From assembly GCF_013122565.1 (NCBI RefSeq), contig NZ_CP053258.1: DNA of 64,000 nt. One strand, given 5' to 3'. The stretch comes from Escherichia coli (lineage in GTDB: Bacteria > Pseudomonadota > Gammaproteobacteria > Enterobacterales > Enterobacteriaceae). Of this stretch, positions 1 through 26,645 are shown piece after piece; positions within the stretch are counted from its first letter, which is position 1, and the number at the start of each line of letters is the position of its first letter. Below the pieces are notes generated by a model. That model was not told where the DNA came from. It saw only the letters and a list, made by a program, of their open reading frames with translations, and searched no databases. Both the position numbers and the translations under genes were made by a program.

Positions 1-521
1 ATTTCGCTGTCGCCGACAAACAGGCCGACGGTCACCTTGCCATGCAGTTGTGGATCGCTGGCGATGGTTTTGGCGAAACGGCTGGCCTGATCGGTTGCCA
101 GGGCGTTCATCGGGTAGATGATAATCGCTTTAACCCCGGCTTGTGACGCGCCCGCGCAGTGGTTGAGCAGCGGGAACATAAAGCATTCTGTTTTACCGGA
201 GCCGGTACCGGTAGCGACCAGCGTCGGCTGTGGCGCGTCGCTTCCCAGACGCTGAAATGCCCGGGCCTGATGCGCGTGCGGCGGGAACGGCAGCGTCAGA
301 TTAGGGAAGAAATTCAGCGGTAAGTCACTTTTACGAAACGGCAACTGGGCGGAAAGGTATGGTCCTTTCAGCAGCGTTTCGGGCTGGGCCAGAAATTGCT
401 CCAGCATTGAGACATTATCGTTATTCTCACCGTTAAACAGCGGGCTGTTTAGCGGGAACGCCGCCCGTAAAAAGGCGGCAACGCTGTCGGCGACCTGCCG
501 ACTGACAACGGACGGCAACAT
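1..521 (-). CDS. DEAD/DEAH-box SF2 helicase, 5' portion only (gene continues beyond window start); DISARM DrmA-like
   Basis: Manual translation of minus strand from ATG at 521-519 gives MLPSVVSRQVADS...PTLVATGTGSGKTECF (Walker A) with no stops to position 1; start overlaps upstream stop (ATGA); RBS-like GGAGAG upstream. Confidence 0.6.
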   Translation of the reverse strand, partial: MLPSVVSRQVADSVAAFLRAAFPLNSPLFNGENNDNVSMLEQFLAQPETLLKGPYLSAQLPFRKSDLPLNFFPNLTLPFPPHAHQARAFQRLGSDAPQPTLVATGTGSGKTECFMFPLLNHCAGASQAGVKAIIIYPMNALATDQASRFAKTIASDPQLHGKVTVGLFVGDSE

Positions 522-3500
522 CAGGCGCTCTCCTTATCTTGTGCAAAGAACGCCCAGGCCACTTTGTAGTCGTCTTCGCGATCCGGCTTGATAAACGGTG
601 CCTGCCAGGTGACGGTACGGCGCTCGCCTTCGTCGCTGCGGGTATAGTCATCAAAGGTGACGCTGACGGTACCAGTTTTAAGATGTTTGACATCATCCCA
701 GCCGATGGCTTGATCGGTGCAGTCACCGCCGGTCCACTCCGGGCTGTCGACGTTAAAGACAAAGCCGTTTTTCAGGTCAGCTTTACGCGCGGTACGCGGC
801 AGACCGACGCCCACCAGCCCTTTGCTTGGGGTAAAGATGATGCGGCCGTTTTGGTCGTACCAGGTGTCCGCTTCGTACTGACGCATCACCGGGAACTGAA
901 CGCGATAAATGGTAAGCAGTTCTTCGAGGGTTAACCCCAGCGCCTGCGCCACCAGTACGTCGATTTCCACCAGCGCCTGACGACGACTGTAGTCAGAGCG
1001 TAAGGCGCAGTTACGCTGCCACTCTGGGGTCAGATTGGTGAAGAAATCCTGGGGGAGCTGCGGGAGATCGCGGCTCCAACGCTGGGTGTTGAAATCTGGG
1101 GTGTAGCAGGATTGCCAGAGATCGGCATAACTTCTCACTAGCGATACAAGGCATAGAGCCCGACTATGTAGTGCTGTACGATAAGCATCATTTGTAAGTA
1201 CTGGCAGTTGGTTAATAAGAGAGGTATTGGCATGCCCCATACCCGTACTTTTCACACGATAATCCAACGGTACAGAAAGAGTCATCGAAAAATAGTCAAG
1301 CAATAATTGAGTATCTTTAAACGCCGTTCCAAGACAAGTATTTATATGGCTCACACCTGGTGGCACAATTGTTGTAATTAATGTTCTTTCAGATGATGGA
1401 CCTATCATTTCACGATTAACAAAACGATAATAGTCCGTCACCTTCCTCGGCTCGTCTTCATCCTGCTCTTTCCACGAAACCCGTGGGGTGCGCTTTGCAT
1501 ACTCCTGTGCATCACAGGCTGGAATATAGTTAGTGCGCGGCAAATAGTCGTCGGGCAGAGTTAGCAAGTCCAGGCAGTCATAATGTCCTTTCTCTGTGCA
1601 AATTTCTCTCGGCGTTTTATAAAGCGGTGTTCCAACATAGAAGTGCGGACCAGACAAAATCCATTGGGATGCGTCTTCCGGGAATTGGGTATGCCGTTCG
1701 ATTGTGCCATCACTTTGTTGATTTGTTTCATGCCACATTTCAAGAGACAAATATTGCCCCTGCAAATCCCCCAGCCGTTTAGGTTGCTTAGCGAATTTTT
1801 CAAGTACAGAAACAAGCGGTTCAGCATGAAGCGCTGGGAGTCGAGCTTCAAGATCCGGCGTTCCCTCTTCATCATAAAGAGTGGCAAATAGTGCAAGCCG
1901 TTCCATTCCAACGGTCAAAATACGGCTTTGATGCCCCGCTTCATTCCAGGAACCTGTTTCGTCATCTTTAATGCCGCCAACTTCACCGGAACCATCATGC
2001 GCAAGACAAAGCTCGATCGTTTTGGCTGAGAAAAGGTTTGCAATATTGATAAAGCCGACAGATTGATTCGGTGAAGCCGTATAAATATTAATGCTGAATT
2101 TAACCCTGTGACCAATAGGGAAAAGCATATGCTGATTCTGAAACTGAAAATGTGCCCTCAGTCTCGGATACACTGCCGCACGAAGCTGCCCGCCTTTCGG
2201 GTCATCATAAATCCCTTCCGGGTGCAGGAAACCTGACACGCCTTTCTGCGCCCCTAAGCGCCAGGCCTGAGGCAGGAAGCATTTATACAAGTTGGTCTGC
2301 ACCCCGCGCAGTACCGGGTAGTTCTGCTGCGCATTGAGGAAGTTTTGCATCCCTTCACAGCCTTCATACTCGCTGCGCCAGGCCGCTTCCAGCGCCGGGA
2401 TCTGGTTGAAGGTATCAATACGCAACGTTGCCAGCTTCGATGCACTCAGCTTACGTAGCACAAATTCCGGCTCGTAATCACCCAGCACGCCCGCTTCCTG
2501 CCATTCCACTTTCAGCCACGGCGGGTTTCCGAGCATCAGGTCAAAACCGCCGCGCTCGGCAAACAGGTCGCAGAACTCCAGATCCCAGTGGAAGAAACGG
2601 TGCTGCTTTCTCAGGGCATCGACAATCGCCAGACGCGGTAAATGACGGAACAACACCTCAGTTTTCAGACGACCTGCGCCGGAAAACAGTGAAGACTCTT
2701 CTCGCAGCAGGCCTTCTTCGGCAAACAGATCACCAGTGGTGTGCTCCGCAACTTCAGTGACTTTTTCCGTAATTACAATCCCGTCGAGCAGGGTTTCAAT
2801 CTCAAACAACCAGGTGCCGCGATCCGGTAACTCATCGGCTTTGTCGATCGGCCAGAACCACAGCGCGCACCAGTAGTCCATTACCCAACGCAGCTTCTGG
2901 TAGGCGCTGTTATCTTCAAGACGACCACTGAAGGTTTCATCTTTACTGCTCAGCGAAGAACGCGTCTGCTCGCTGTTTTCTGCCGGCCACACCGGGTAGC
3001 TGTCGGCGGTTTTCAGACGTTCTGCTTTAAGTTGCTGGCGATAGGTGTTCCACAGTGCTTCCACCTTTTCGCTGATACGCTGCACATCAGCAATCTCATG
3101 CCCGGCAAAGCTTTTAATAAACTCTTTGCGCCAGCTGTCCAGCGCTTTGAAGTCATCCGGATAACGCTGCTTAACGGTTTTATCGCTGTAGTTAGCCATA
3201 CCGCCGTCGGGCAGCAGGAAGTGGAAAATCTGCGTCTCTTCACGCGGCGTGTTCATCGCCAGCTCGACCGGTTCGCTGTTAAGCCAGCTCGGATCTTTGG
3301 CTTTTTTGTAGGTCAGTTCGCTCTTGTTGAACACCTGACGGCGCGCGCCCACCAGCGAGTTACCGCAGTGCAACTGGTAACCAAACCACGGTACAAACGC
3401 ATCGCCACTAATGGCGTTCAGCCACAGTGACACTTCCGCCAGTTCCACCGCCACCGGGTTTAAGTCCACGCCGAAAACGTTGTTGTCGGCAATGTACATT

Positions 3501-5437
3501 TTCACCCGCTGTAACTCCTGGGTGTAACGATCCTGCGGAATACGGCGACCTTCCGCCTGCTGCTTATGGAACAGATACGCTTCCGCCAGCTGGTTGATGG
3601 CTTCGTTAAGGAACGCCGCGCTGCCCATCGCCGGTTCGCACACGGTGAGGTTTAAGATGGCGTCGGCTTTGGCGTGCGGATCGCTAATGGGATCAATCTG
3701 CTCCTTAAACAGTTCTTTCAGAGCATATTTAACCAGTGAGCGGGTCAGCACTTCCGGGGTGTAATAAGATGCAGATTTCTCACGGTCGCGCCCGGCCATA
3801 CGGTAGATAAAACTGCCTTTGCGGTGAATGCGCAGACTGCCGTCTTTCTCGTAGACCTTCTCGTCTTCGTGGTATTTGCCAATCTCATCCTTACTGACGA
3901 AGTAACCCGTCTCCAGCTCGTTAAACTCTTCCCCGGCTTTCTTCACCTCGTAGAGATCTTCGCTGGCGAAGAATCCGCGATAGGAGAGCAGCGCCTCATA
4001 CACCGCACCCAACTGGTTGATACCCAACTGGCGATAAGATATACGTCCACGGCGGTTAAAGCGCCCTTTGCCCGGGCGGCTTAACGACATCGCCTGGATA
4101 ATCTGTTGCAGGGTTTCGTTACGGAATACCACGCGGTTAAGAATGCGGGTGTTGTTGGCATCGAAAAGATGACTTTCCAGACGCGGGACGCTGAACTGAT
4201 GACTATGGATGGTGATCCGGTCGCCGCTCTCCAGGTCACTCTGCATTTTCACGCCGCCGTTGTAGCCTTCGCGCACCAGTTTAAACAGCATATTCAGGCT
4301 GTCGTGGAAGTAGCGCCCGTTGCGATCTTCTTCGCTGGTCAGCGGGATCATCTCCAGATCGCGCAACGTTTCCAGGCTGTAGCCCTGTAGATAGGTTTTG
4401 GCGGTCATTGGCGCATAACCCAGCTCCGGGCGCGCTTCAATGTAGAACAGGAACAGCAGGCGGTACATGTAACGCAGACATTCGCGGCTCAGTTCATCCG
4501 GGTCCACCGCACGGTTACCGGTATAGTTTGCCAGGCCACGGTCGATCAGATAATGCATCGCTTCGTTGCCCAGCAACTCAATGCTTTCGCGCAGGGCATA
4601 TTTCAGATCTTCCGAAACACCAAACGCATGTTTGTGCGAATTGTCATCCAGCGAGTCAAGATAAGGTGCCCCACTGCCCGGCAGCAGAGAATCTTTATGT
4701 AGCAACACCGCCGTCGCTTTCAGCGTATCCGTTTCACGACGACTTAAAATCTCTTCAAAATCAAAACGTAGCAGACGGTTTTGCGCCCACTTAGTACGGT
4801 CCAACAACAATAGCTGACGGTTACCGAGCAGCAGCACAAAACGCGGCGGTTCATTTTGGGTGAAGACCGCCGTAGAGAGCAGATCCTGCCAGCTGCGATA
4901 TTCACCGTTGGCTTTTTTGCGCAGGCTGTCGCGCTTATGTTTGTCGGTATCCGCCGGGAATTGCGCGGTCAGTAAGGAGAGCGCCAGCGGATCCAGCGTT
5001 CCTTCTTCCTGATCGTGTGCTTCAACAATCCACAGCCACGGGCTACCGTCAGTGCTGTTGTAACGCGCCAGTACCGGCAGTGGTGTATCGTCATCCAGCA
5101 TTTGGATCTGCGGCGTAATTTCGTAGCCCAGCGCCTTTAACAATGGCTGCCAGCGATTACGTTGATCGGCCAGACGCTGCGGGATCTGACGCTGTTTTTC
5201 GTGCTCGGCAAGTTTGCGGAAAAACTCAGTCGCCAGACTGTTAAACTGGTTCCACGGAGCGCGGTATCCCGGCTCCACGTCTTTGCCCTGTTCACGAGCG
5301 GCACGTTCCGCTTCACGCGCTGCATTTTCCTGGGCTATCCAGGGTTCCAGCACATCGCGGATATCACTGGTGAAAACCTCACCCAAATAATGGTTAGAGT
5401 AAAATTCGTTTTCGTTATTAATACCGACCAGCGCCAT
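521..5437 (-). CDS. Large N6-adenine DNA methyltransferase (1638 aa), DISARM DrmMI-like
   Basis: ORF track; AdoMet-binding-like motif EPAMGSAAFL and catalytic NPPW motif; sits between SNF2 helicase and DEAD-box helicase genes. Confidence 0.7.
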   Translation of the reverse strand: MALVGINNENEFYSNHYLGEVFTSDIRDVLEPWIAQENAAREAERAAREQGKDVEPGYRAPWNQFNSLATEFFRKLAEHEKQRQIPQRLADQRNRWQPLLKALGYEITPQIQMLDDDTPLPVLARYNSTDGSPWLWIVEAHDQEEGTLDPLALSLLTAQFPADTDKHKRDSLRKKANGEYRSWQDLLSTAVFTQNEPPRFVLLLGNRQLLLLDRTKWAQNRLLRFDFEEILSRRETDTLKATAVLLHKDSLLPGSGAPYLDSLDDNSHKHAFGVSEDLKYALRESIELLGNEAMHYLIDRGLANYTGNRAVDPDELSRECLRYMYRLLFLFYIEARPELGYAPMTAKTYLQGYSLETLRDLEMIPLTSEEDRNGRYFHDSLNMLFKLVREGYNGGVKMQSDLESGDRITIHSHQFSVPRLESHLFDANNTRILNRVVFRNETLQQIIQAMSLSRPGKGRFNRRGRISYRQLGINQLGAVYEALLSYRGFFASEDLYEVKKAGEEFNELETGYFVSKDEIGKYHEDEKVYEKDGSLRIHRKGSFIYRMAGRDREKSASYYTPEVLTRSLVKYALKELFKEQIDPISDPHAKADAILNLTVCEPAMGSAAFLNEAINQLAEAYLFHKQQAEGRRIPQDRYTQELQRVKMYIADNNVFGVDLNPVAVELAEVSLWLNAISGDAFVPWFGYQLHCGNSLVGARRQVFNKSELTYKKAKDPSWLNSEPVELAMNTPREETQIFHFLLPDGGMANYSDKTVKQRYPDDFKALDSWRKEFIKSFAGHEIADVQRISEKVEALWNTYRQQLKAERLKTADSYPVWPAENSEQTRSSLSSKDETFSGRLEDNSAYQKLRWVMDYWCALWFWPIDKADELPDRGTWLFEIETLLDGIVITEKVTEVAEHTTGDLFAEEGLLREESSLFSGAGRLKTEVLFRHLPRLAIVDALRKQHRFFHWDLEFCDLFAERGGFDLMLGNPPWLKVEWQEAGVLGDYEPEFVLRKLSASKLATLRIDTFNQIPALEAAWRSEYEGCEGMQNFLNAQQNYPVLRGVQTNLYKCFLPQAWRLGAQKGVSGFLHPEGIYDDPKGGQLRAAVYPRLRAHFQFQNQHMLFPIGHRVKFSINIYTASPNQSVGFINIANLFSAKTIELCLAHDGSGEVGGIKDDETGSWNEAGHQSRILTVGMERLALFATLYDEEGTPDLEARLPALHAEPLVSVLEKFAKQPKRLGDLQGQYLSLEMWHETNQQSDGTIERHTQFPEDASQWILSGPHFYVGTPLYKTPREICTEKGHYDCLDLLTLPDDYLPRTNYIPACDAQEYAKRTPRVSWKEQDEDEPRKVTDYYRFVNREMIGPSSERTLITTIVPPGVSHINTCLGTAFKDTQLLLDYFSMTLSVPLDYRVKSTGMGHANTSLINQLPVLTNDAYRTALHSRALCLVSLVRSYADLWQSCYTPDFNTQRWSRDLPQLPQDFFTNLTPEWQRNCALRSDYSRRQALVEIDVLVAQALGLTLEELLTIYRVQFPVMRQYEADTWYDQNGRIIFTPSKGLVGVGLPRTARKADLKNGFVFNVDSPEWTGGDCTDQAIGWDDVKHLKTGTVSVTFDDYTRSDEGERRTVTWQAPFIKPDREDDYKVAWAFFAQDKESA

Positions 5438-5439
5438 GA

Positions 5440-8298
5440 TTAACCCTCCGCTCCGGTGATAACAGCAATTACCTGAATGTAGGGTTCTTTTTCAGTCGTC
5501 ATGGTGTCCTCAATCCATTCGATATAGCTGTCAAAATTGTGTTCGATTTCGCGTTGTCTCTGCTCTTTACGGCTCTGCTTGACTGACAATTGCTGTTTGT
5601 TATCGGCAAAATCCAGCTCAAGTTGGCTCAACTGCCGCCCACGCAAAACGTCCAGCTTTTGCAGATGCTCGTTCAGTTGCTGGTTAATGTGCGTTTCAAA
5701 CGCATTCCGATCATGGATAAATACCTCCCGGGCATGCGCAATAGCCGCTTCCAGTAAATCCTGCTGGCGCTGGTGATTACGATCTTTACCGCCGCTGTTA
5801 GTCAGATTGTTACTCAACTGCGGATGACGTTGTAAAAACTCAGCGAATGGCTGACTGCCGATTAGCGATTCACGGTCAAAGCTCACCACTATCCACGGGT
5901 TCACCATCGGATGTGATTTACGGTTCGGGAATAACCCGGAAAGAATGAAGTGATCTTCATCGGGTTCAAGCAGGTATGGCAGACGGATAACCGGTGCCTG
6001 ATGACGACCAAAAGCCGAAGAGATTTTATCGTCCAGCCACTGCACTACCGGGTTGATTTGCCAGAGATACTGCACATCGGGCCAGGCATGTTGCTCACCG
6101 CGAGCGCGCGCAATCGCGTCGGTGATGACGGTTTTATCCTGACTTAAATAGAGCTGCCAGTTCTCCGGGGCAATTTCAGGCGGTAGCTGGTTGAAGCGGC
6201 GGCGTAACTCCTCCGGTGCCACCAGCGACAAGGTATTATCAGGCAAGGTTTCATACTGGATAGTTTGACCACTGGCTTTCAGGTAACCCAATGCTCTTTC
6301 ACAGTACGCCTGTTCGCTGGCAAACAAGCTGGTGTCTGTTTCGGTAACCATTGAGGCATCGCTGGAAACCGCACTGCATATTTCGCCAAACAGATCATGT
6401 TCGGCGCTTTCCGAGACGTTGCTGTTCAGCAGTTGATCAAACAGGCTGGCACCATCATCCTGCATCATGAACTCTGCAACCTGCTCTTCTTCCTCTTCCT
6501 GGGTAAATTTGCCGGTAAACTCCGAACTGTCCCCAATGTTCTTCTGCGCCTGTTCGTCTTTGTTGATCAACACTTCCAGTACGCGCATATCGCCATTGAT
6601 CTGTGGTTCGCTGGCCTCGGTAAGCAGATAGCGGATTTGAGGCTGATGTTTTTGCCCATAGCGGTCAATACGCCCGTTACGTTGCTGGAATACCATCAAC
6701 GACCACGGAATATCAAAGTGAATCATTTTGTGGCTAAGGTGATGCAAGTTGATCCCTTCAGATGCCACATCCGAACAAACCAGAAGACGCAACGGAGACT
6801 GCGTTTTACCAAAGGCTTCTACGGTTTCCATCAATACCGTATCGCCCTGATCGCCGCGCAGCGTGGCGATCTGGTCATCTTTCAATTTCAGATCCGCTCG
6901 CAGTTGCTGTTCGAGGAACTCCAGCGTTTTAATACTTTCGGTGAAGATCACCAGGCGATCTTCCGTGTTATTGGCTTTCCAGGCGAGGTCTTTTCGGATG
7001 GTGTCGAGCAGCAACTGGTATTTGCTAAACTGGCTGGCATCAATGTTATTCAGCGCCAACAGCAATGACTCCAGTTCGTTGATCTGGCTCTGGCTATTAT
7101 GATCTTTACGGCTCTCAAGACGCTTCAGACGATTCGCCACTACGCTGGCACACGCCATCGGGCTGGAAAATAGCGCTTTTTCGAGGGTTATCTTGAACAG
7201 ACGACCTTTGTTAGACTGGGCCTGTTCATCGTCATCATCACGGAACTGGCTCTCAACCAGGCGACGGTATGCTTCTTCTTCGGCACCAGATGCCAGGCGA
7301 GTCAGTTTGACAATATTGCGCTCGGGGAACTCGCCGGACATCTGATCTTTCACGTCTTTTTTGAAGCGACGGACAACCAGATTTTTATCGGCAAAATCGG
7401 CGTATTCATACTCTTTCGGGTTGGCGATCGCCGTCGGGTCAAGCATGTTCATCAGGCTGGCAAAACTTTCAGCCTTACCATCATGCGGTGTTGCTGAAAG
7501 CATAATCAGCGTATCGCTGCGCCCGGCGAGCAGTTTTGCCAGTTTACTGCGTAACGAACTGGTTCCACGTTCTGCGACGTTATGGGCCTCATCAATGACA
7601 ATAATATCCCACCAGGCATTTTCCAGATGGTGACGATATTCAATGTCTTGTTTCAGCGTATCGATGGAGATAATGGTCTTGTCAAAATAGTGGAACGGGT
7701 TGTGGTTGGTTGGGATGCGGTTACGCACCTTTTGTAAACCAGCAGAATCCAGGCGGGTCAATGGGATCGCAAAACGGCTCCAGAACTCCTTCTGGAATTG
7801 TGTCAGCATCGATTTAACCGCCAGAACCAGAATACGTTTTCCGCGCCCACGACGGATCAGTTCCGAAACCAGAATACCGGCTTCCAGCGTTTTACCCAGA
7901 CCGACAGCGTCGGCAATGAGTATCCGCTGGCGCGGTTGTGCCAGCGCCATCCGCGTAGGATCGAGCTGAAACGGCATGGAATCCATCGCCGCCAGATGAC
8001 CAAAATGGACTTTACTGTCTGTCGGTACGCGTTGGCGTAACTGACTTTCAATATACAACTGTGCCGCTTGATAATTGGCGGATTCATCTTCCACCAAATG
8101 CGTTTTTGCGGGATCAAGGATCTCTACTTTTTGTTCCAGTTTGGTCAGAAATAACCCTTCTTTACCGCGCACCAGCTCTGAAATACCATCGCAGGTCAGC
8201 AAATACCCACCATCACCACTGTCATCCGCCCGGCGAATACGCCATTCGGCATCACGAATAACCACCCGCATACCAGGTGCATAATTTTGCTTATTCAT
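5440..8298 (-). CDS. SNF2-family helicase (952 aa), DISARM DrmD-like
   Basis: Walker A GLGKT, DEAH box (VIDEAHNV), C-terminal helicase region; 2 nt upstream of methyltransferase start. Confidence 0.7.
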   Translation of the reverse strand: MNKQNYAPGMRVVIRDAEWRIRRADDSGDGGYLLTCDGISELVRGKEGLFLTKLEQKVEILDPAKTHLVEDESANYQAAQLYIESQLRQRVPTDSKVHFGHLAAMDSMPFQLDPTRMALAQPRQRILIADAVGLGKTLEAGILVSELIRRGRGKRILVLAVKSMLTQFQKEFWSRFAIPLTRLDSAGLQKVRNRIPTNHNPFHYFDKTIISIDTLKQDIEYRHHLENAWWDIIVIDEAHNVAERGTSSLRSKLAKLLAGRSDTLIMLSATPHDGKAESFASLMNMLDPTAIANPKEYEYADFADKNLVVRRFKKDVKDQMSGEFPERNIVKLTRLASGAEEEAYRRLVESQFRDDDDEQAQSNKGRLFKITLEKALFSSPMACASVVANRLKRLESRKDHNSQSQINELESLLLALNNIDASQFSKYQLLLDTIRKDLAWKANNTEDRLVIFTESIKTLEFLEQQLRADLKLKDDQIATLRGDQGDTVLMETVEAFGKTQSPLRLLVCSDVASEGINLHHLSHKMIHFDIPWSLMVFQQRNGRIDRYGQKHQPQIRYLLTEASEPQINGDMRVLEVLINKDEQAQKNIGDSSEFTGKFTQEEEEEQVAEFMMQDDGASLFDQLLNSNVSESAEHDLFGEICSAVSSDASMVTETDTSLFASEQAYCERALGYLKASGQTIQYETLPDNTLSLVAPEELRRRFNQLPPEIAPENWQLYLSQDKTVITDAIARARGEQHAWPDVQYLWQINPVVQWLDDKISSAFGRHQAPVIRLPYLLEPDEDHFILSGLFPNRKSHPMVNPWIVVSFDRESLIGSQPFAEFLQRHPQLSNNLTNSGGKDRNHQRQQDLLEAAIAHAREVFIHDRNAFETHINQQLNEHLQKLDVLRGRQLSQLELDFADNKQQLSVKQSRKEQRQREIEHNFDSYIEWIEDTMTTEKEPYIQVIAVITGAEG

Positions 8299-8365
8299 CG
8301 GTTTTTCTGTCTATTTGGGGCAGTGGCGGTAACGTCATCCTGAAAAATGTGGCGCGGCACACTGC

Positions 8366-8403
8366 GATAAAAAAGAGGGCCTTAAAGATATCATGAAGGC
8401 CCC
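8366..8403 (-). terminator. Rho-independent terminator-like hairpin after druE-like gene
   Basis: Stem GGGCCTT/AAGGCCC followed by T-run on minus strand (A-run 8368-8375 on plus). Confidence 0.45.
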
Positions 8404-8521
8404 CGGCAAAGTGACAAAATGGGAGGGAATGCGCATAAATTGCGCATGATTTTCAAACAAAAATTATTAAAAAGTGAGCTGGGTCAACTCCCCTGGAAGA
8501 TATCCCCAGGGGAGCAATTAT

Positions 8522-11500
8522 TTATCCAGCGATAACATAACTCCTAAGGTCATTACCCGGGGCAACAGCTCGCGATCGCGTGTTTGCCAGCCGTTCAACT
8601 TGCTGCGGTACTCGCAGAGCAAAATCAAATAAGGTGTCTTCAATACAGCGCCAGTAGCTAAGCCCCATGTCGAGCAGGACATAATGCTGACTGCCATCGC
8701 TGAAGGTGACTGTCAGTTCTCGTCCATGCTCCGTACTCTGGTTATCCCCCGTTAACCAGCTAATTGCTCCCGGCCACGCAGGCCCCAGATATCCTTCTTC
8801 AAGTAAAGTGGTCACAACCTGCTGACGATCTTCCTCATTAAGCCACGCGTTATAGAGAGCGTCGTGTTGGCGAGAGTTGTAATCCAATTTTTTGACGCAA
8901 ACAGTGAGGCTGGCGCGTTCCGCCATTCCCTGTTCAACCAGCTCGGTTAAGATTTCACCTAACAAACGCGCCGTGAATGGGCTATTAAGATAACGATCGC
9001 TGTACTCAACATGCGTTATCTCTTTGTGGCGGGTAAATGCCTGCTTCCAGCCAGCGTGCTGTTGCGTGACTAACGACCAGAAACGCGAACCAAAACCTTC
9101 CAGCGGCCCGTCCAGTTGTTCACAGAGATTGATGCGCACCGCCCCGGTGGGTAAGGCGGGCAGTAAATCTTCTGCACTTAAGGTCTGACCCGAGAAGGTT
9201 TTTCCGGACGTTCCTTTAAGTGTCACTACTGGTGAAGACGCACTTTGTCCCCATAATTCACCAGGGGCAACGGTAGCGCTGTCGTCTGCGGCCCACTGTT
9301 GGCTTTGCCCTTCGCGAGTCACCTGCGCAAGCCAGCGCCCCTTTCCTTGCATGAGTTGCGCAGTGGCAATGGATTTCACTTGTAAGCGTCCTCCCGGCAT
9401 CGCCGCCAACGCGGAAAGCTGATGTCTGGAGCTATCAGTTAAGTTTTCCAGCGGCGTGGCCACCAGCAACTCAACATTCCCACCGGAGGAAGCAAACTGG
9501 AGCAACTCTTTAAATAATGGCCATTGGGCAAAGTCCCACTGTTCCTGCGGCCCCGCAAGAACCAGCGAGCAGGAGTCATAAATCTCGCTGTTCAGGCATT
9601 GCGCAATACGTAAACTCAGAGGGTTAGTTTCAACCCGGCTACCATCGCCGAAGTACTGATATTCTGGCGCGAGGTTAAGTCGCTGCAACCGTACATTGGT
9701 AAGCAGGGTTAATGCATGGTGACGATCTAATCTGTTGACATAATGCTGACTGTCGTAGCTGAGCAAGCAGTGGTGACAGAATTTATCGCAACTGCAATCG
9801 AGCAATTTTCTGGCGTAATTAAAGACATCAGCCCAATGGTCGATCAATTGCACTGCATAACCTGCACCACCCGCATTATTGTCGTAAATGAAGATGGAAT
9901 ATCCGGTATAGCCATTGATATCGCGCGCTTGCTGCGTCGTCACGCCCAGCTCAGTATTTTCGATACCCAATTTATGCGCTAACCCTTCACGCAAAGCGAC
10001 CGCAAGGGAACGCGCGGCAACCTCATCACGGATCAACAGGCCATTATCATCATTGAGTTGCAGCTCAACCATATCTGTACGACTGCTATACCCCAACCAC
10101 AGATCTTTATGCACATGACCGTGGCACAATTTATTGCTCCCCTGACGATCGTTACTGCCCCCTCGCAACAGGTAATGCGTATTTTCCCGCTCTGGGTTCT
10201 TTAGATTTTCAGGGGTACGCTGGGGTTGAGTTTGAGATTCTGCCCGACCACATGAGAGGCAAATTGCGTAGCCGTGCCCAAATTCCCCTTCACTGAAGTG
10301 GAACAATTCCCCACTATGGCTAAAACGGTAACGTCCTAGCCCAGCATCGGGTAAAGAAACCCACACCGAAGACGGTACAAGAACACGTGGATCTTTCCAG
10401 GGAAGTTGTGCAGGCATGGATACATCATTATGTGCCTGATAACGAATATCTGTCGCAAAACCAACAGGCTGTAAATAACGCTTCACATCAAGTTGCTGTA
10501 TATCCGCTTTGCAGTGACTACATTCGACAGGACGGGTAGTACTGGTTGCCCCCGCACCACATTTACGGCAATGCCAGAACCACGGAATATGATGATCGCC
10601 TGACAGCTCCTGCCCGCTGGCAAGTACCTTGCCAAGCATAATGCCCGAGGAACGATATACTTTTCCGCCCAATACCACATCTGCACCAGGCGCATACTCG
10701 CGTAATGCTGTAGGTAGATCACGGCTGGGCAATTTTTCAATACGACGAGAAAAGCTTTCTCCCCCTTCATTAGGGTCAGCCTGAGTGGCTTTTATTGCGC
10801 GACGTTTTTCCAGCTCATCTGCCGTCAGATAATTGAAATTGACTACGCCAACCGGGAAACCATGCCCCGGCAGGAACGCTTCACTAATGAGTTTAGAAAA
10901 CAGATATGCACCGCGATAATCACGAAGCTGATAAGCGATGGCTTTACCTGCTGGCGTTTCTTCCCACGCGCTGTTATCCGCCTTCAACGCTTCGATATTT
11001 TCCAACAGTATCGCAAGTTGGCTTCTCCAGCGGATATCAACCTGCTGCATCATTGCTTGTGTGCGGGTCAAGAGCTGGGTTGCCGTCAATGACATCAGGA
11101 CGGTTCCCTGAGTAAGGCGTTTAAGTTTATCCGCCAGCTGATCGGCCTGGTGATTTAACCAATGGAGAAAACGAAGACACTGGCTCTCATCACCTTCAAA
11201 GAACCATTTGCAACTCAGTTTTGTCGCATCAGGAACTTCAGCTCGTAAAAACAGACCTAAAACCAGGGCATTAACATGTCGTTGAACAATGCTACTGCTC
11301 CCAAAACGAACCCGTGGCGCACTGGCAGTAGTGTTGAACGCCCAGAGGGGGTCTTTGAATACCTCCATTCCATGCGCCGTGTTTTTACATAACGTAATGG
11401 CAGCAGATGCACTCTCTCCACGACGCCCCGCGCGACCTGCACGTTGCAAATAATTTGCCGGCGCTGGAGGAACGTTGTTCATTGCCACCAAACTCATACC

Positions 11501-14500
11501 ACCAATATCCACCCCCATCTCCATGGTCGTGGAACAGTTCAGCACATTAACTTTGCCTGACTTAAATTGTTTTTCATTAAACTGGTTCTGCTCAGGCGTT
11601 CTCTGCGCAGAGTGTTCCTCCAGACGATACCAGCTATCTTTCAGGGCCAGTCGGTCGCTGCGAGTAGACCATAATCCTTCCTCGCGGGCATGTTGAATCA
11701 GCGCATTACTTTCCAGCCACTCCAGACGTTCTTCTCGGGCGATTTCTCCACCACCAGACAAACGCCAGTGACGTACAGGAAGCTCAGGCATTTCAATCAA
11801 CACTGCTTTTTCAGGTGCAATTTCTTTGCTACCCGGCAAATACGGAGAGTATCCCAGCAACGTGACGTCTAACGCACGTCGAGTATAGGGGCAACGCCAC
11901 ACTTGCTTTGGACTGTAAAATTCAGCTTGTTGTTTAATATCCAGCTGATAACCCGACTCAAACTGACGTAAGCAGGGTCGAATTGCATCCCAGACCTCAA
12001 TCATTAAGTGGTTAACTAACGATTTCCAGTGAGCCTGCTCAGGTTGTATTGCCGGAAAGACTGCGATTAATAGCTTAATGACCCGGTTATAATGGCGATC
12101 GCGTATTTGTGGCCAAAGTTGATCACGTTTCTGCCCTTTGTTTTTTTTATCTGGCCCCTGGAGCATTTTTACCGGGAAACGTGCCCCCATCCAGCGAGGG
12201 TATTGCTCGTTTTCGTAAAAAACGGCACTGTTTTCACGGATAAAGAAATCAAGAGTAATCTTCAATAAATTACGCCATTCCGCTAATTGCTTATCGGGAT
12301 CGGGTAATAATGTCTTCCAGTCCTGCGGGCAGGTTGTAACTTTATCAATAAATGGATAGTGAATGGCTACCAGACCCAGACTTTCGAGGGTCCAGGCATT
12401 TTTAGGGCGGCGACCAAACTCGCTGTATAAACAAAAATCTGCAAACTGTTGTTTAGTAAGATCAAGCCCAGACAATTCTTTAAAACTGCCTCTCATTCTA
12501 TCGGCAAGGTCCACACTGCCAACCAGCTGTTCAGACAGCGTTTGCCATGACATGGTTTTCTTCTGCTGATTGCCAGAGTTAGCCTGAAGTATTTGCATCG
12601 CTTCAGCATGATCCGGGCTTAAGGAACTCACCATCGGCTCAATAATTTTAAGTGCCTGAATGTCCGCCGGGCTAAGCTCCTCATTCGCAGCCATCGCTTT
12701 TTTCAGCGCGTCGATGGAATTTTTTAAAGGGAGGACAGAAAACTGGCTAATAACTTTCTCTAACAGTGCACAGTGTGCCGGGCTGAGTTTTGCTGAAGGC
12801 TCTGTAATATTTGCCAGCTCCTGGTAACAAAGAGCTCGCAACGTCGCTTTATCGGCATCCTGCTGTAAGCGAGCTGAAATGCGAGCGGTACCCTGACGCG
12901 AATCCGTAAAGGTGAGCAAGCGTCGACCATTAAACGGTCCTAACTGCTCTTCTCTTGTTTGCGGTAATGGAGAAAACTCCAGCAGAGTAGGAATAATTTC
13001 ATTTAAAAAAAAGGGCGCGCCGAGCCGAAGCGGACGGAATAAAGGATTATTTTTCCGTTGAGTGTCACCACAGCACACACAAGCAAAGGAGTTATTGCGT
13101 CCCTCACCTCGAGATTCCGGTCTTAACAGGTTTATTTCATAGTGCTTTTGCGCTTCACTATCAATTTTCCCCGCCGTCGTTTCTTCCAGTGAAATGATAT
13201 ATTTTTCACCATCGCTCGCAATCAGACGATCAAATTGAGAGTTATTGTCTAATTCGTCGTTGTCTTCATCTTCAGAATAAACATCTACATCAAGAGCAAA
13301 CTCATCCACTTCGGCAGCGGCGGGTTGCGCTACCAACCAGTTCGTTCCATCACCGCGCATCTCCTCTTTGGCAGACAAATAAGCTGAACCACACCCGGAG
13401 CAACGTAAAACTTCAAATACCGGCGCACCACAGTCACAATATTGGCGCTGCTCAAACCATACCTGACCAAATGGCCAGTCACTCTGATTTAATTCATGTG
13501 CTTTATGTGAGCATTGTTTGTTTGAACATGCCCATAGACCCGCCAGTGTTCTGATAAACCCATGCATACGTAATGGCGTAAAAGCCAGTTCACCTTCTCG
13601 CGATCTTGCCATTAGATCGAGGAGTTGCAGTAGCTCACGGTGATTAATATCTGGCCAGGTTCTTCTGGCAACATTGAGCAACTCACTCAAACGTACTGCC
13701 TGCCGTCCGGGATGAGTTAACGCCTGACGCAATTGCTGGGCCACACGGTAATGACAAAGCTGTTGGTAAAGATCCTGAGGGCTCAGGGATTTAAGAGAAG
13801 TTAAAGATGTGGGGTATTCATGACGAATCAGCGACTCCGATACCCGCGGTATTTGTCGATAACCGCGAACCACTTTGACATCACGTTCTGTAACGCCCGC
13901 GAGATCAGCGACAAATTTAGCAAGCTCCTTATTACCTTCAGGAGAGTCTTCACCAATAGTGGCAGAGGTCGCGATAATCTGCACAGGTTTATCTGTGCCG
14001 GGTCCAACATTGAAAGCCTGCATAACACGACGTAAAAGCAGCGCTAACTCAGCAGCCTGAGAACCAATATAACTATGGGCTTCATCCAGGACGATATACT
14101 TTAACATCCCCTGAGACTTTTCGATGATTGGGGCATCTTTACGACGAATCAGCATATATTCCAGCATGGTGGTATTCGTCACCATGATGGAAGGTGGTGC
14201 TTCATAAATGGCTTCCCGACTCAAAGCTTGTTCAGGTACTTTCAACTGATCTTCCTGAATTTCGTATTTGGTATGCCGGGTTTCGCCATTATATAGCGCG
14301 AAGCGTATTTTCCCCTTAAATCCGCGCGTCCATTCGCGAAGCCGCTCCTGTTGGCTGTTAATTAATGCATTTAACGGATACAAGAAAATAGCTTGTGTCC
14401 CTGTTAGTGACTGGCGGGTCGATTTTTGCTGACGAATAAGATCTTCCAGAACAGGTACCATAAAGCATTCTGTTTTCCCGGATCCCGTACCGCTGCTCAC

Positions 14501-14845
14501 TAACAAGGATTTTTTGTCTTCCAGAATCGTTCGCCACGCAGTGAGTTGATGACGAAATGGCACTGGCGCTTTGCTCAATGCATCAACCAGCGGGCTGGAG
14601 ATCAGCTTGTCCCGCAAATCCTCCATTGTTTCATCCGCAGGCATCCAGCCGAATGTACTTTCGAATACCGGGTCTGCAAGCAGTGACCCCTCCTGACCGG
14701 GAGGCTGAAAATATTGTGATTCCAGATAATGAGTCAACGACTTGCTCCGCAATGCCAACTGACTTACCACCGACCTCACCGCACGCTGATGAAGCTGATT
14801 TAGAAGTGGCGCATAATGCAGTTGCTGAACGTCCATCAATGACAT
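8522..14845 (-). CDS. Very large helicase (2107 aa) with C-terminal cysteine-rich DUF1998-like zinc ribbon; Druantia DruE-like
   Basis: Motifs GTGSGKTECFM (Walker A), VLDEAHSY (DEAH), C-terminal CxxC clusters (CSCDKFCHHC); size and architecture match DruE. Confidence 0.7.
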   Translation of the reverse strand: MSLMDVQQLHYAPLLNQLHQRAVRSVVSQLALRSKSLTHYLESQYFQPPGQEGSLLADPVFESTFGWMPADETMEDLRDKLISSPLVDALSKAPVPFRHQLTAWRTILEDKKSLLVSSGTGSGKTECFMVPVLEDLIRQQKSTRQSLTGTQAIFLYPLNALINSQQERLREWTRGFKGKIRFALYNGETRHTKYEIQEDQLKVPEQALSREAIYEAPPSIMVTNTTMLEYMLIRRKDAPIIEKSQGMLKYIVLDEAHSYIGSQAAELALLLRRVMQAFNVGPGTDKPVQIIATSATIGEDSPEGNKELAKFVADLAGVTERDVKVVRGYRQIPRVSESLIRHEYPTSLTSLKSLSPQDLYQQLCHYRVAQQLRQALTHPGRQAVRLSELLNVARRTWPDINHRELLQLLDLMARSREGELAFTPLRMHGFIRTLAGLWACSNKQCSHKAHELNQSDWPFGQVWFEQRQYCDCGAPVFEVLRCSGCGSAYLSAKEEMRGDGTNWLVAQPAAAEVDEFALDVDVYSEDEDNDELDNNSQFDRLIASDGEKYIISLEETTAGKIDSEAQKHYEINLLRPESRGEGRNNSFACVCCGDTQRKNNPLFRPLRLGAPFFLNEIIPTLLEFSPLPQTREEQLGPFNGRRLLTFTDSRQGTARISARLQQDADKATLRALCYQELANITEPSAKLSPAHCALLEKVISQFSVLPLKNSIDALKKAMAANEELSPADIQALKIIEPMVSSLSPDHAEAMQILQANSGNQQKKTMSWQTLSEQLVGSVDLADRMRGSFKELSGLDLTKQQFADFCLYSEFGRRPKNAWTLESLGLVAIHYPFIDKVTTCPQDWKTLLPDPDKQLAEWRNLLKITLDFFIRENSAVFYENEQYPRWMGARFPVKMLQGPDKKNKGQKRDQLWPQIRDRHYNRVIKLLIAVFPAIQPEQAHWKSLVNHLMIEVWDAIRPCLRQFESGYQLDIKQQAEFYSPKQVWRCPYTRRALDVTLLGYSPYLPGSKEIAPEKAVLIEMPELPVRHWRLSGGGEIAREERLEWLESNALIQHAREEGLWSTRSDRLALKDSWYRLEEHSAQRTPEQNQFNEKQFKSGKVNVLNCSTTMEMGVDIGGMSLVAMNNVPPAPANYLQRAGRAGRRGESASAAITLCKNTAHGMEVFKDPLWAFNTTASAPRVRFGSSSIVQRHVNALVLGLFLRAEVPDATKLSCKWFFEGDESQCLRFLHWLNHQADQLADKLKRLTQGTVLMSLTATQLLTRTQAMMQQVDIRWRSQLAILLENIEALKADNSAWEETPAGKAIAYQLRDYRGAYLFSKLISEAFLPGHGFPVGVVNFNYLTADELEKRRAIKATQADPNEGGESFSRRIEKLPSRDLPTALREYAPGADVVLGGKVYRSSGIMLGKVLASGQELSGDHHIPWFWHCRKCGAGATSTTRPVECSHCKADIQQLDVKRYLQPVGFATDIRYQAHNDVSMPAQLPWKDPRVLVPSSVWVSLPDAGLGRYRFSHSGELFHFSEGEFGHGYAICLSCGRAESQTQPQRTPENLKNPERENTHYLLRGGSNDRQGSNKLCHGHVHKDLWLGYSSRTDMVELQLNDDNGLLIRDEVAARSLAVALREGLAHKLGIENTELGVTTQQARDINGYTGYSIFIYDNNAGGAGYAVQLIDHWADVFNYARKLLDCSCDKFCHHCLLSYDSQHYVNRLDRHHALTLLTNVRLQRLNLAPEYQYFGDGSRVETNPLSLRIAQCLNSEIYDSCSLVLAGPQEQWDFAQWPLFKELLQFASSGGNVELLVATPLENLTDSSRHQLSALAAMPGGRLQVKSIATAQLMQGKGRWLAQVTREGQSQQWAADDSATVAPGELWGQSASSPVVTLKGTSGKTFSGQTLSAEDLLPALPTGAVRINLCEQLDGPLEGFGSRFWSLVTQQHAGWKQAFTRHKEITHVEYSDRYLNSPFTARLLGEILTELVEQGMAERASLTVCVKKLDYNSRQHDALYNAWLNEEDRQQVVTTLLEEGYLGPAWPGAISWLTGDNQSTEHGRELTVTFSDGSQHYVLLDMGLSYWRCIEDTLFDFALRVPQQVERLANTRSRAVAPGNDLRSYVIAG

Positions 14846-17800: not shown

Positions 17801-18195
17801 AGTGTATGCAGATAACCCGAAGCTTGCCCCAGGTTTCTTATCTTTCTTTTCCAGTAGCGAATGCCATCATTAACCAGCTTCTGTCGATGAACATACGGAA
17901 CTTTCCAGTTAATAGAATCTAAAATTGTGTCCCATTTAGGGTGTCCGACCGTATGAGTTCGGCGGATAAACTCTGCGGCATATATGCTAAATAGAACATC
18001 GCTATAGGAAATGAATATCGTTCTTGGATAACTACGGGGGGCATATGTACGCAGTAGTTCTGCCAAACTTTCGTACTCTGTATCAGTACAACGGTAAGCA
18101 TATAACGCCCGTCCATCAGCTCCGGATAATGAACGGCGACTAAAAAACATGTTAAGCCATTGCAAAAGTGGGTTAACTGGAGTTTTCACAAGCAA
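14836..18195 (-). CDS. Large protein of unknown function (1119 aa); Druantia type III DruH-like by position
   Basis: Long ORF immediately upstream of and overlapping the DruE-like gene by 10 nt; no recognisable catalytic motif. Confidence 0.5.
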   Translation of the reverse strand: MLVKTPVNPLLQWLNMFFSRRSLSGADGRALYAYRCTDTEYESLAELLRTYAPRSYPRTIFISYSDVLFSIYAAEFIRRTHTVGHPKWDTILDSINWKVPYVHRQKLVNDGIRYWKRKIRNLGQASGYLHTLACEGGLPIRMIENESGYLITYFRRIYQALRGQSSQYPAAKIAQELGDTIPVTMQNELVYEIAGEFCETLCRLLSEHPPQSSDPVSALRKLSPDWHLQLPLVLPEANAAEIVRRLLSQSSEIRSASSLQVERIWVDVDDSWYCDARFRFPATMRTEQLTSLFECHIQPEQTRLIISGKWKNGGARLAMLSRYEQQDWRVELLPIAMQKLSGADAMAEISLSLHEGPILLGHTIPKGGYELTEELPWVFEAMNESESQLKLVGMGSVSSRLNALFISLPKNSHLDISGEGEFDIPRLLKNSERSLTKISGVFSVVLHDGAVCTIRTQQLYDSAIEYYIKSTEVELVKSDYPVHRAWPKIGWKKDLQYGIVPEKELFWRSIRSGNNAWYSVASEMPKGQIEVRRIVNDEVLFSGKVVVLPADFDINIIPESAQQGIIILSGITDTRIDKYSNNEKVTLKSDYSQNECAIYYNSSQMLENTVDLRVSWKDGSNLKLLLPKPVSGGRFVTNDGSVHFDGVASIAHLHGIDAELLTISCAGRGYLNIELFDENPVAEKFRYLHADLPLLSGRNDKLQQISLYENYNLLNAMLACAWNSNSTLCVDFYSDRFGKDKATLNIKRYDGSFIEHDQGLLVDIKNSVVFPANRIDELVVDAISLKNPGLHISLLKKDEFAYDLSALNVQDSPWLIVGKLDGTARIAPVIKWMLPVLQTNDLLLNALCEADPEQRKKNFNELIFEIDNNPLQNYCCLLTEYIKKYKMNNGLSLLDLDLFRCISSNYRVVVQLLISSCLSGDSDTIYDIQEELPFSWGWIPVSIWKDVFQKCWTYLEKQINDKTLALHILRPFIAFMNHRAHIDRRLAPIANMLLTYSESLPTGCDVLPTVSREQFNEAKQMLLRNPDSFGRISIFPKELWSSAITPELKSVFNKLWIEDKYHSRLEKRFNLMLVAALLTQKDNNLIHQLSALFEFHYQQAPQQLGVIYQYYFEQAGVCH

Positions 18196-18403
18196 CCTGC
18201 CTTCCTTTGATACAATTCGTAACAGGTTACTATCATCATAAAAAAGCTCAACCCGATGAACTCGCTAAAAATGAGACAAATCATTTATATCTCGAAAAAA
18301 CTTGTTACAATCATGAGCGCTACACCGAACTTAACCATATAAATTATGTGTGTTTTGTTTATTTTTTAAACGATTACAACTATCCATTATTTACACAGGT
18401 ATC

Positions 18404-20059: not shown

Positions 20060-20065
20060 TCGATC

Positions 20066-20773: not shown

Positions 20774-20776
20774 GAG

Positions 20777-26613: not shown

Positions 26614-26645
26614 ATTCGCCTCCTGAGTCATTGCATAAAGAGTAG

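What the first reader, a model, noticed from the sequence alone, without database searches (positions are those of the whole stretch)
1..8298. DISARM-like operon with an unusually large methyltransferase and overlapping gene junctions
The gene order SNF2 helicase, adenine methyltransferase (NPPW), DEAD-box helicase is read directly from the sequence. The methyltransferase stop and the helicase start overlap (ATGA at 519-523). At 1638 aa the methyltransferase may carry extra domains; the DUF1998 and PLD partners would lie beyond the window start.
Basis: partly seen in the sequence, partly recalled or inferred. Interest (0 to 1): 0.5.

Follow-up and report, generated by a model that had tools for sequence, protein, structure and literature searches.

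The report
ARMADA II phage defence operon
This stretch is the first two and a half genes of ARMADA type II, an E. coli anti-phage system related to DISARM that was described and tested experimentally in 2025, so the finding is real but already known.

Summary
On the minus strand lie a 952-aa SNF2 helicase (5440-8298), a 1638-aa NPPW adenine methyltransferase (521-5437) and the first 173 aa of a DEAD/DEAH helicase (1-521).

The "DISARM-like" reading is only partly right. This is armA-armB-armC of ARMADA type II, on E. coli O-island 172, beside Druantia III and Zorya II. Bell et al. (PMC12458937) and Li et al. (10.1101/2025.09.22.677730) described and tested it in 2025. All five residues they mutated in ArmA, ArmB and ArmC sit at the same positions here. 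ArmA is 950/952 identical to their reference accession.

The predicted separate DUF1998 and PLD genes do not exist in E. coli relatives. DUF1998 is fused inside the 2113-aa ArmC, which is closer to DruE than to DrmA. No PLD domain turned up. The fourth gene is a UvrD/GajB-like helicase.

Two things appear to go beyond those papers:
- ArmB has a restriction-endonuclease-like fold at its N-terminus.
- ArmB has two hypervariable blocks (about aa 1095-1185 and 1340-1450) in a region whose fold matches target-recognition domains. The blocks reassort independently among otherwise ≥92%-identical alleles, which suggests swappable DNA specificity.

The system is already known and overall interest is low. 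The specificity-swapping lead is modestly interesting.

The parts
1..521 (-). armC, 5' part (codons 1-173 of about 2113). YprA/DruE-like DEAD/DEAH helicase. Walker A lysine K110 is at nt 192-194.
   Evidence: The translation is 173/173 identical to the N-terminus of the 2113-aa helicase in E. coli EC1515. PADLOC best hit is DruE3 at 3e-24, against DrmA at 9e-5. K110 is the residue mutated by Bell et al..
521..5437 (-). armB, a 1638-aa PglX/DrmMI-like N6-adenine DNA methyltransferase
   Evidence: Intact ORF. Exact match to WP_171459892.1 from E. coli. G605 and N971 are at the positions mutated in PMC12458937. PADLOC: REase_MTase_IIG 1e-281, DrmMI 2e-57.
4733..5140 (-). ArmB aa about 100-235: alpha/beta domain with a restriction-endonuclease-like fold. 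No canonical PD-(D/E)xK motif is evident.
3818..4732 (-). ArmB aa about 236-540: helical domain of the kind that precedes the methyltransferase core in PglX, DrdV and HsdM
2516..3637 (-). ArmB methyltransferase core from motif I (EPAMGSAAF, aa 601-609) to motif IV (NPPW, aa 971-974). The two motifs are 366 aa apart, which implies a large insert that is conserved among alleles.
   Evidence: Motif positions. The Pfam Eco57I match is split: aa 652-738 and 938-978. Column entropy is low, about 0-0.3 bits, across 127 alleles.
1883..2155 (-). ArmB hypervariable block HV1 (aa about 1095-1185, with a less variable tail to about 1300)
   Evidence: 127 homologues that are at least 89% identical overall have a median identity of 47% here, against 97% in the scaffold. 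The DNA mosaic has sharp breakpoints.
1088..1420 (-). ArmB hypervariable block HV2 (aa about 1340-1450), replaced as a whole block
   Evidence: Median identity 39%, minimum 28%. Nearly every residue varies. Only 37 E. coli genomes match at least 80% of this 300-nt allele, against 527 that hold the locus. The region's fold matches TRD-bearing enzymes.
5440..8298 (-). armA, a 952-aa SNF2 (BrxHII/RapA/DrmD-like) helicase. K136 is at nt 7891-7893 and D236 at nt 7591-7593.
   Evidence: PADLOC: DrmD 1e-99, BrxHII 9e-60. NCBIfam: DrmD 349 bits (cutoff 610), RapA 1e-38. 950/952 identical to WP_001041505.1, the ArmA reference in Bell et al. Table S2.
8299..8521 (-). druE-armA intergenic region. It holds a 12-bp-stem hairpin (8487-8515) directly after the druE stop, and a sigma-70-like site TTGTCA-16-CATGAT (8417-8390). 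This is the likely terminator and own promoter of armABCD.
   Evidence: RNA fold -28.5 kcal/mol, z -3.2. Promoter scan. Both are consensus-level evidence only.

Best explanation
The region is the promoter-proximal part of an ARMADA type II anti-phage operon, armABCD, in an E. coli leuX/O-island-172 defence island. It lies directly downstream of Druantia III (druH, druE), with Zorya II divergent beyond that. The window holds armA (SNF2 translocase), armB (methyltransferase) and the first 173 codons of armC.

Shown by others' experiments:
- The four-gene unit protects against many phages by a direct, non-abortive route.
- All four genes are needed, as are the ATPase motifs of ArmA and ArmC, the Walker A motif of ArmD, and the NPPW motif of ArmB.
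- A single armB deletion is viable and abolishes defence.

Inferred here (probability about 0.5):
- ArmB is both the sequence reader and the sequence writer. Its C-terminal domain, which resembles a target-recognition domain, binds a specific DNA motif and N6-methylates host copies as a self mark.
- Unmethylated motifs on incoming DNA are engaged by ArmB together with the ArmA translocase, as with PglX in BREX or the motor-methylase of Type ISP enzymes.
- This licenses ArmC (a DruE-like helicase with fused DUF1998 and a C-terminal nuclease domain) and ArmD (a UvrD-like helicase) to unwind and destroy the phage DNA.
- The two hypervariable blocks of ArmB would set which motif is read, and recombination exchanges them between strains and genera.
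For: Identity:
- Gene order and sizes.
- ArmA K136 and D236, ArmB G605 and N971, and ArmC K110 are at exactly the published positions.
- ArmA is 950/952 identical to the paper's reference accession.
- ArmB is an exact match to an E. coli protein.
- DNA matching armA-armB is found in 527 of 5426 complete E. coli genomes, and DNA matching armC-armD in 533.
- Both papers describe this very island.
- ArmC relatives carry MZB/DUF1998 and ArmD relatives carry UvrD domains.

Own transcription unit:
- A 223-nt gap with a hairpin and a promoter-like site.
- A plasmid carries armABCD intact beside a truncated druE.

Reader/writer model:
- HV1 and HV2 vary at 28-47% identity in a scaffold that is at least 92% identical. 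There are at least 10 HV1 types and at least 17 HV2 types in 33 combinations, including all four combinations for 7 pairs of HV1 types. Several types are shared across genera.
- The armB deletion phenotype and the loss of defence with N971A resemble PglX in BREX.
Against: - The window stops at ArmC residue 173, so armC and armD in this particular strain are inferred from relatives.
- No methylation motif for ArmB was found in the searchable literature. Neither ARMADA paper uses the word 'methylation' in its main text.
- The only methylome of an island-carrying lineage I found (O145:H28) shows only Dam and PstI-type motifs. It is uninformative, because armB is frameshifted in the O145 genomes I checked.
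- G605A (SAM binding) only partly reduced defence. That fits poorly with methyl transfer being the essential step.
- Hypervariability could instead reflect escape from phage inhibitors.
Confidence: 0.85

Rival explanations
1. [quoted passage not shown]
For: ArmA's best PADLOC and NCBIfam hit is DrmD (1e-99; 349 bits). ArmB hits DrmMI at 2e-57. The gene order SNF2, methylase, helicase is the same.
Against: In relatives the next genes are a single 2113-aa helicase with DUF1998 fused inside it, then a UvrD-like helicase. There is no separate DrmB, and no PLD domain was found in the parts scanned. That helicase matches DruE at 5e-104 and DrmA only at 4e-14. ArmA is below the curated DrmD cutoff.
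Confidence: 0.03
2. druH-druE-armA-armB-armC-armD form one six-gene system (an extended Druantia), not two systems.
For: All six genes are co-directional and adjacent. They co-occur in hundreds of E. coli genomes, and both papers report synergy. Both systems encode DruE-family helicases.
Against: A strong hairpin and a promoter-like site sit in the 223-nt gap. ARMADA alone, cloned with its native promoters, protects. Single-system deletions leave the other system active. Li et al. found 17 strains with ARMADA II alone. A plasmid carries armABCD beside a truncated druE.
Confidence: 0.1
3. ArmB is a self-contained Type IIG/IIL restriction-modification enzyme (nuclease, methylase and TRD in one chain), and the helicases are accessory or unrelated.
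For: ArmB's best PADLOC hit is REase_MTase_IIG at 1e-281, covering aa 99-1556. It has an N-terminal restriction-endonuclease-like fold. The overall domain order resembles MmeI and BpuSI.
Against: Deleting any of armA, armC or armD abolishes or reduces defence. No canonical PD-(D/E)xK motif is present; the conserved residues are E139, D/E213-R-x-K216. The PADLOC model is probably built from this same family, so it does not show that cleavage has been demonstrated.
Confidence: 0.04
4. The hypervariable blocks of ArmB are not specificity determinants. They are surfaces diversifying to escape phage-encoded inhibitors such as DNA mimics of the Ocr type.
For: Defence proteins often carry hypervariable surfaces. 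No methylation motif data exist for any allele.
Against: The blocks are replaced whole by sequences only 28-47% identical, with sharp DNA breakpoints and discrete types that reassort independently. This is the pattern of TRD exchange seen in HsdS and PglX, not of point-mutation arms races. The region's fold matches TRD-bearing enzymes.
Confidence: 0.2

Closest known systems
ARMADA type II (armABCD) of E. coli NCTC 12900, ATCC 8739 and EDL933 (z5899-z5902); Bell et al. 2025, PMC12458937; Li et al. 2025, 10.1101/2025.09.22.677730
   Same: [quoted passage not shown] ArmA is 99.8% identical to the reference accession.
   Different: Only the allele differs. This ArmB (WP_171459892.1) carries one particular HV1/HV2 combination. 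Its HV2 allele is matched over at least 80% of its length in only 37 E. coli genomes, against 527 with the locus.
Class 1 DISARM (DrmD, DrmMI, DrmA, DrmB, DrmC), e.g. Serratia sp. SCBI
   Same: An SNF2 helicase and a large N6-adenine methyltransferase are followed by a YprA-family helicase and a DUF1998 module.
   Different: DUF1998 is fused into the helicase rather than being a separate DrmB. There is no PLD DrmC. The helicase belongs to the DruE-like branch. There is an extra UvrD/GajB-like fourth gene.
Druantia type III (DruH, DruE), the neighbouring genes at 8522-18195
   Same: ArmC and DruE are both helicases of about 2100 aa with the same family profile (PADLOC DruE3).
   Different: Druantia III has no methyltransferase and no SNF2 helicase. 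A 2026 preprint (10.64898/2026.05.12.722862) reports no host methylation by Druantia III.
BREX PglX and the Type IIG/IIL/ISP enzymes (MmeI, BpuSI, DrdV, LlaBIII)
   Same: A gamma-class adenine methyltransferase with an N-terminal helical domain and a C-terminal TRD. Loss of the methylase abolishes defence without killing the cell, as with PglX. The variable specificity region resembles PglX and HsdS.
   Different: No PglZ or BrxC is annotated in the relatives' islands. NCBIfam PglX scores are 25-28 bits against cutoffs of 500-900. HMMER searches of PDB sequences found nothing. The nuclease-like N-terminal domain lacks the canonical motif.

Membership tests
ARMADA type II | Strict gene order: BrxHII/RapA-like SNF2 helicase, PglX-like methyltransferase, YprA-like helicase, GajB-like UvrD helicase | tested here: met
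   armA, armB and the start of armC are in the window. armC and armD follow in E. coli loci that are 95-100% identical. armC-armD DNA is in 533 genomes and armA-armB DNA in 527. The window itself ends at ArmC residue 173.
ARMADA type II | The YprA-family helicase has fused OB-CON-DUF1998 and is closer to Druantia DruE than to DISARM DrmA | tested here: met
   Tested on the EC1515 orthologue, which is 173/173 identical over the window's part. MZB/DUF1998 PF09369 at 7e-13. DruE3 5e-104 against DrmA 4e-14. No tree was built.
ARMADA type II | Correspondence to the experimentally validated system (catalytic residues, reference sequences) | tested here: met
   K136, D236, G605, N971 and K110 are at the published positions. 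ArmA is 950/952 identical to WP_001041505.1.
ARMADA type II | Anti-phage activity of this particular allele | not testable with these tools
   Activity has been shown only for the NCTC 12900, ATCC 8739 and EDL933 loci.
DISARM class 1 | DrmD SNF2 helicase | tested here: inconclusive
   Best hit, but 349 bits against a curated cutoff of 610. PADLOC DrmD 1e-99.
DISARM class 1 | Separate DrmB (DUF1998) gene next to the DrmA helicase | tested here: not met
   DUF1998 lies inside the 2113-aa helicase, and no separate gene exists in relatives.
DISARM class 1 | DrmC phospholipase-D nuclease | tested here: not met
   No PLD hit for the ArmC C-terminal half or for ArmD. The annotated neighbours in three E. 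coli records contain none.
BREX | PglX equivalog together with PglZ and BrxC | tested here: not met
   NCBIfam PglX models give 25-28 bits against cutoffs of 500-900. No PglZ or BrxC appears in the annotated islands.
Type IIG restriction-modification enzyme | One chain with an active nuclease, a methyltransferase and a TRD, sufficient on its own | tested here: inconclusive
   PADLOC REase_MTase_IIG 1e-281. The nuclease-like fold and TRD-like fold are present. The canonical nuclease motif is not evident, and the published genetics require the other three genes.

The most novel reading that the evidence does not exclude
ArmB may be a modular specificity factor. Two non-homologous hypervariable blocks in its TRD-like C-terminal region (aa about 1095-1185 and 1340-1450) are exchanged independently by recombination across Escherichia, Klebsiella, Salmonella, Enterobacter, Providencia, Proteus and Pantoea. 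That would give ARMADA dozens of different DNA-motif specificities on an almost invariant scaffold. ArmB may also descend from a Type IIG/ISP-like enzyme, keeping a nuclease-like N-terminal domain that may be inactive. Neither ARMADA paper proposes this. Li et al. note only that armB is the variable gene of the island.
Probability: 0.5. Interest if true: 0.45.

Novelty: already known. Interest (0 to 1): 0.25.

Why it matters
The system itself is already named, mapped to this exact E. coli island, and shown to be the dominant phage barrier in EHEC O157:H7 and in ATCC 8739. Re-finding it adds nothing new.

The practical lesson is for annotation. This locus is easily mislabelled as DISARM, as a Type IIG R-M enzyme, or, for the neighbouring druE, as a "motility-regulating RNA helicase".

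The part worth following is how ARMADA tells self from phage, which neither paper addresses. The block-wise hypervariability of ArmB gives a direct, cheap test: compare methylomes and phage ranges of natural or engineered HV1/HV2 alleles. If it holds, it would also explain why closely related strains carrying "the same" island could differ in phage susceptibility. That matters for phage therapy against EHEC.

Tried and rejected
- **PDB sequence searches.** ArmB alone, and a 51-sequence family profile, gave no hit even at E ≤ 1. Only fold comparison worked.
- **Pfam on ArmB.** Both halves gave only weak, split Eco57I/MmeI_Mtase hits. My first Pfam call failed because the protein exceeds 1200 aa.
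- **HV1 and HV2 as duplicated TRDs, as in HsdS.** hhalign probability 0.1, so rejected.
- **A local shufflon or silent cassettes feeding the HV blocks.** There are no inverted repeats and only two short, chance-level direct repeats in 1-8600. Rejected; the variation is allelic.
- **Published methylomes.** The O145:H28 SMRT methylome shows no extra motif. However, the O145 genome I aligned (RM9873-C1) has a 2-nt gap and premature stops in armB. At least 17 other O145 assemblies carry the same DNA and the same split annotation, and RM13514 shows a comparable disruption. The methylome therefore says nothing about ArmB. Two further literature searches found no ArmB motif.
- **DISARM, BREX and standalone Type IIG membership.** See the membership rows.
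- **HV conservation at family depth.** Among homologues at about 30-60% identity, the HV blocks are not markedly more variable or gap-rich than their surroundings. The fold is conserved, and the hypervariability is a feature of the closely related alleles.
Full report
**1. What is in the sequence**

All genes of the finding are on the minus strand.
- A 952-aa ORF at 5440-8298.
- A 1638-aa ORF at 521-5437.
- An ORF that starts at 521 and runs off the window's left end (173 codons).

The 1638-aa protein has one NPPW (aa 971-974) and a SAM-binding EPAMGSAAF motif around G605. The truncated ORF has a GSGKT Walker A motif.

The methylase stop and the helicase start share one base (TGATG, 523-519). 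The SNF2 stop and the methylase start are separated by 2 nt (TAA-TC-ATG).

**2. What it is**

PADLOC profiles give the following:
- 952-aa protein: DrmD 1e-99, BrxHII 9e-60.
- 1638-aa protein: REase_MTase_IIG 1e-281, DrmMI 2e-57.
- N-terminal helicase fragment: DruE3 3e-24, against DrmA 9e-5.
- The two genes upstream on the same strand are Druantia III: DruH 14836-18195 and DruE 8522-14845, both with E = 0.

DNA matching 1-8298 occurs in 527 of 5426 complete E. coli genomes, at 95% identity or more in all but one.

In those genomes the window's left edge continues into a 2113-aa DEAD/DEAH helicase and then a 704-aa UvrD-domain helicase. Transposase remnants and the nan/fim region follow.
- The 2113-aa protein is DruE-like (5e-104, against DrmA 4e-14). 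It carries the MrfA zinc-binding domain, formerly DUF1998, internally (PF09369, 7e-13). No PLD domain was found in the C-terminal 1100 aa scanned.
- The 704-aa protein is GajB/UvrD-like.

A full-text search then showed that this four-gene unit has a name: ARMADA type II, armABCD.
- Bell et al. defined it (PMC12458937).
- Li et al. studied it in EHEC EDL933 as z5899-z5902 on O-island 172 (10.1101/2025.09.22.677730).

The correspondence is exact.
- The residues Bell et al. mutated (ArmA K136 and D236, ArmB G605 and N971, ArmC K110) are the same residues at the same numbers in the window's proteins.
- The window's ArmA is 950/952 identical to WP_001041505.1, the ArmA accession in their Table S2.
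- The window's ArmB is an exact match to E. coli WP_171459892.1.

**3. Is it a separate unit from Druantia?**

The 223-nt gap between druE and armA holds two features. A 12-bp-stem hairpin follows the druE stop directly (-28.5 kcal/mol, z -3.2). A sigma-70-like site lies at 8417-8390.

A plasmid (pPSJ-12_1) carries armABCD intact next to a truncated druE with an IS91 transposase nearby. The published genetics show each system works when the other is deleted, with synergy when both are present.

I therefore treat armABCD as its own operon that is functionally coupled to Druantia III.

**4.

"DISARM-like" is a fair description of the kinship; ARMADA stands for "disARM-related Antiviral Defense Array". 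The concrete prediction of DrmB and PLD DrmC genes upstream is not borne out in any relative examined. NCBIfam places ArmA below the DrmD cutoff (349 against 610 bits) and ArmB far below the PglX cutoffs.

The guess that the big methyltransferase carries extra domains is right, as the next section shows.

**5. Anatomy of ArmB (new work here)**

The ArmB family is large: 1221 representatives of 50%-identity clusters at E ≤ 1e-30. I built two alignments with diverse homologues and predicted two structures.

In the nuclease-like segment the conserved polar residues are E139 (30 of 47), D/E213 (39 of 47) and K216 (42 of 47), arranged as D-R-x-K. This is not a canonical PD-(D/E)xK motif, so activity is undecided.

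This region is therefore the end of a gamma-class methyltransferase domain followed by a target-recognition domain (TRD).

Motif I and motif IV are 366 aa apart, which implies a large insert in the catalytic domain.

**6. Hypervariable blocks**

Comparing the window's ArmB with the EC1515 allele gave 100% identity nearly everywhere, but 36-40% at aa 1351-1450 and 74% at aa 1101-1150.

In 127 near-full-length homologues that are at least 89% identical overall:

| Region (aa) | Median pairwise identity | Minimum |
|---|---|---|
| 1-1090 (scaffold) | 97% | 92% |
| 1095-1180 (HV1) | 47% | 31% |
| 1341-1460 (HV2) | 39% | 28% |
| 1466-1638 (scaffold) | 97% | 89% |

- Single-linkage clustering at 90% gives at least 10 HV1 types and at least 17 HV2 types, in 33 combinations. 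For 7 pairs of HV1 types all four combinations exist, so the blocks reassort independently.
- At DNA level, identity drops from 97-100% to 34-53% across sharp breakpoints.
- HV types are shared between genera. Single linkage may over-merge types.
- The window's 300-nt HV2 allele is matched over at least 80% of its length in only 37 E. coli genomes, against 527 that hold the locus.
- HV1 and HV2 are not homologous to each other.
- No local repeats or silent cassettes exist.
- armC-armD DNA is at least 95% identical in all 533 genomes that have it.

[quoted passage not shown] Neither paper's main text contains the word "methylation".

**7. Most likely mechanism**

*Shown by others.* Defence is direct and non-abortive. 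It needs all four genes, the ATPase motifs of ArmA and ArmC, the Walker A motif of ArmD, and ArmB N971. G605A is only partly defective. An armB single deletion is viable and loses defence. Hypermodified Tevenvirinae are not restricted.

*Inferred.* ArmB behaves like PglX in BREX, as a specificity factor required for both modification and restriction. Its TRD reads a motif, host copies are N6-methylated, and unmethylated copies on entering DNA are engaged together with the ArmA motor. ArmC and ArmD then unwind and degrade the DNA. The HV blocks would set the motif. I put about 0.5 on this chain.

The main gaps are these:
- No methylation motif is known for any allele.
- The partial phenotype of G605A is hard to fit.
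- I could not map HV residues onto a DNA-facing surface.

The O145:H28 methylome shows no extra motif. It cannot be used against the model, because armB is disrupted in that lineage. In the O145 genome I aligned there is a 2-nt gap and premature stops. RefSeq annotates the gene as two pseudogene pieces in that genome and in many other O145 assemblies.

**8. Verdict**

This is a correct observation of an already described and experimentally validated system, ARMADA type II. Novelty: already known. The block-wise, independently reassorting variability of ArmB and its nuclease-like N-terminal fold are modest additions that make the self/non-self question directly testable.

Noticed in passing
window 8522-18195 (-): Druantia type III: druH 14836-18195 (1119 aa) and druE 8522-14845 (2107 aa), both with PADLOC E = 0. 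RefSeq names druE a 'motility-regulating DEAH-box RNA helicase' in one genome, probably a legacy of a 2013 O-island 172 paper (PMC3681947). That name conflicts with its defence role.
   Followed up: partly
window 18350-21880 (+): Zorya type II (zorA2, zorB2, zorE), divergent from druH. This completes the published three-system array.
   Followed up: partly
L001 14183-14500 (ArmC aa about 2022-2077) and window 21611-21781 (ZorE aa 279-335): The extreme C-terminus of ArmC shares a 57-aa module with the C-terminus of ZorE from the same island: 40% identity, pairwise E 2e-8, PADLOC ZorE2 6e-9. It may be the Vsr-type domain that Bell et al. describe.
   Followed up: partly
L005 4034-8942 (E. coli O145 RM9873-C1) and hits H69-H85, H107-H109: In O145:H28 genomes armB is annotated as two pseudogene pieces. 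In RM9873-C1 my alignment shows a 2-nt gap and premature stops, and armC is also annotated as frameshifted. Intact alleles that are 98.9-99.8% identical span 1203 nt where O145 spans 1201 nt. ARMADA is probably inactive in this lineage, although the lineage is counted among carriers of the island.
   Followed up: partly
window 24300-47703: A second integrated element next to tRNA-Leu(CAA) (47619-47703), with its integrase at 46151-47419. By synteny it carries a CbtA/YeeU/RadC/DUF932 'moron' block, plus a GTPase (33393-34406) and a WYL protein (34446-35216). This matches the satellite-like elements described by Bell et al.
   Followed up: partly
window 35704-44594 (+): A Type I R-M operon (hsdR 35704-39120, hsdM 39184-40818, hsdS 40815-41990) is followed in the same direction by PDC-M01A (PtuA-like AAA ATPase, 41987-43678, 5e-239) and PDC-M01B (43668-44594, 1e-107). 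GC drops to 31-33% at the 3' end.
   Followed up: no
window 25278-26682 (-): AbiEii toxin (25278-26225, PADLOC 5e-128), with a small overlapping upstream ORF (26218-26682) that may be the AbiEi antitoxin.
   Followed up: no
window 44843-45847 (-): A DUF4365-type protein that matches the nuclease part of an Argonaute-associated REase profile (PADLOC Aga_REase, 5e-23). It stands alone next to the integrase.
   Followed up: no
window 22091-23197 (+); L002 2250-3356 and 36578-37075: A full-length nanM-like N-acetylneuraminate epimerase gene follows zorE. In other E. coli genomes nanM copies or fragments flank the whole ARMADA-Druantia-Zorya block, which hints at how the block was inserted or duplicated.
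   Followed up: no
L004 (plasmid pPSJ-12_1) 4069-22588: armABCD is intact on an 84-kb plasmid, beside a druE truncated at its 5' end, with an IS91 transposase nearby. In total, 16 plasmid records match armA-armB.
   Followed up: partly
window 2516-3637 (-): Motifs I and IV of ArmB are 366 aa apart, which implies a large insert in the methyltransferase core. A 2026 paper (PMC12839542) reads a similar insert in BREX type 3 methylases as a nested TRD. In ArmB the insert is conserved between alleles, while the C-terminal blocks vary.
   Followed up: partly
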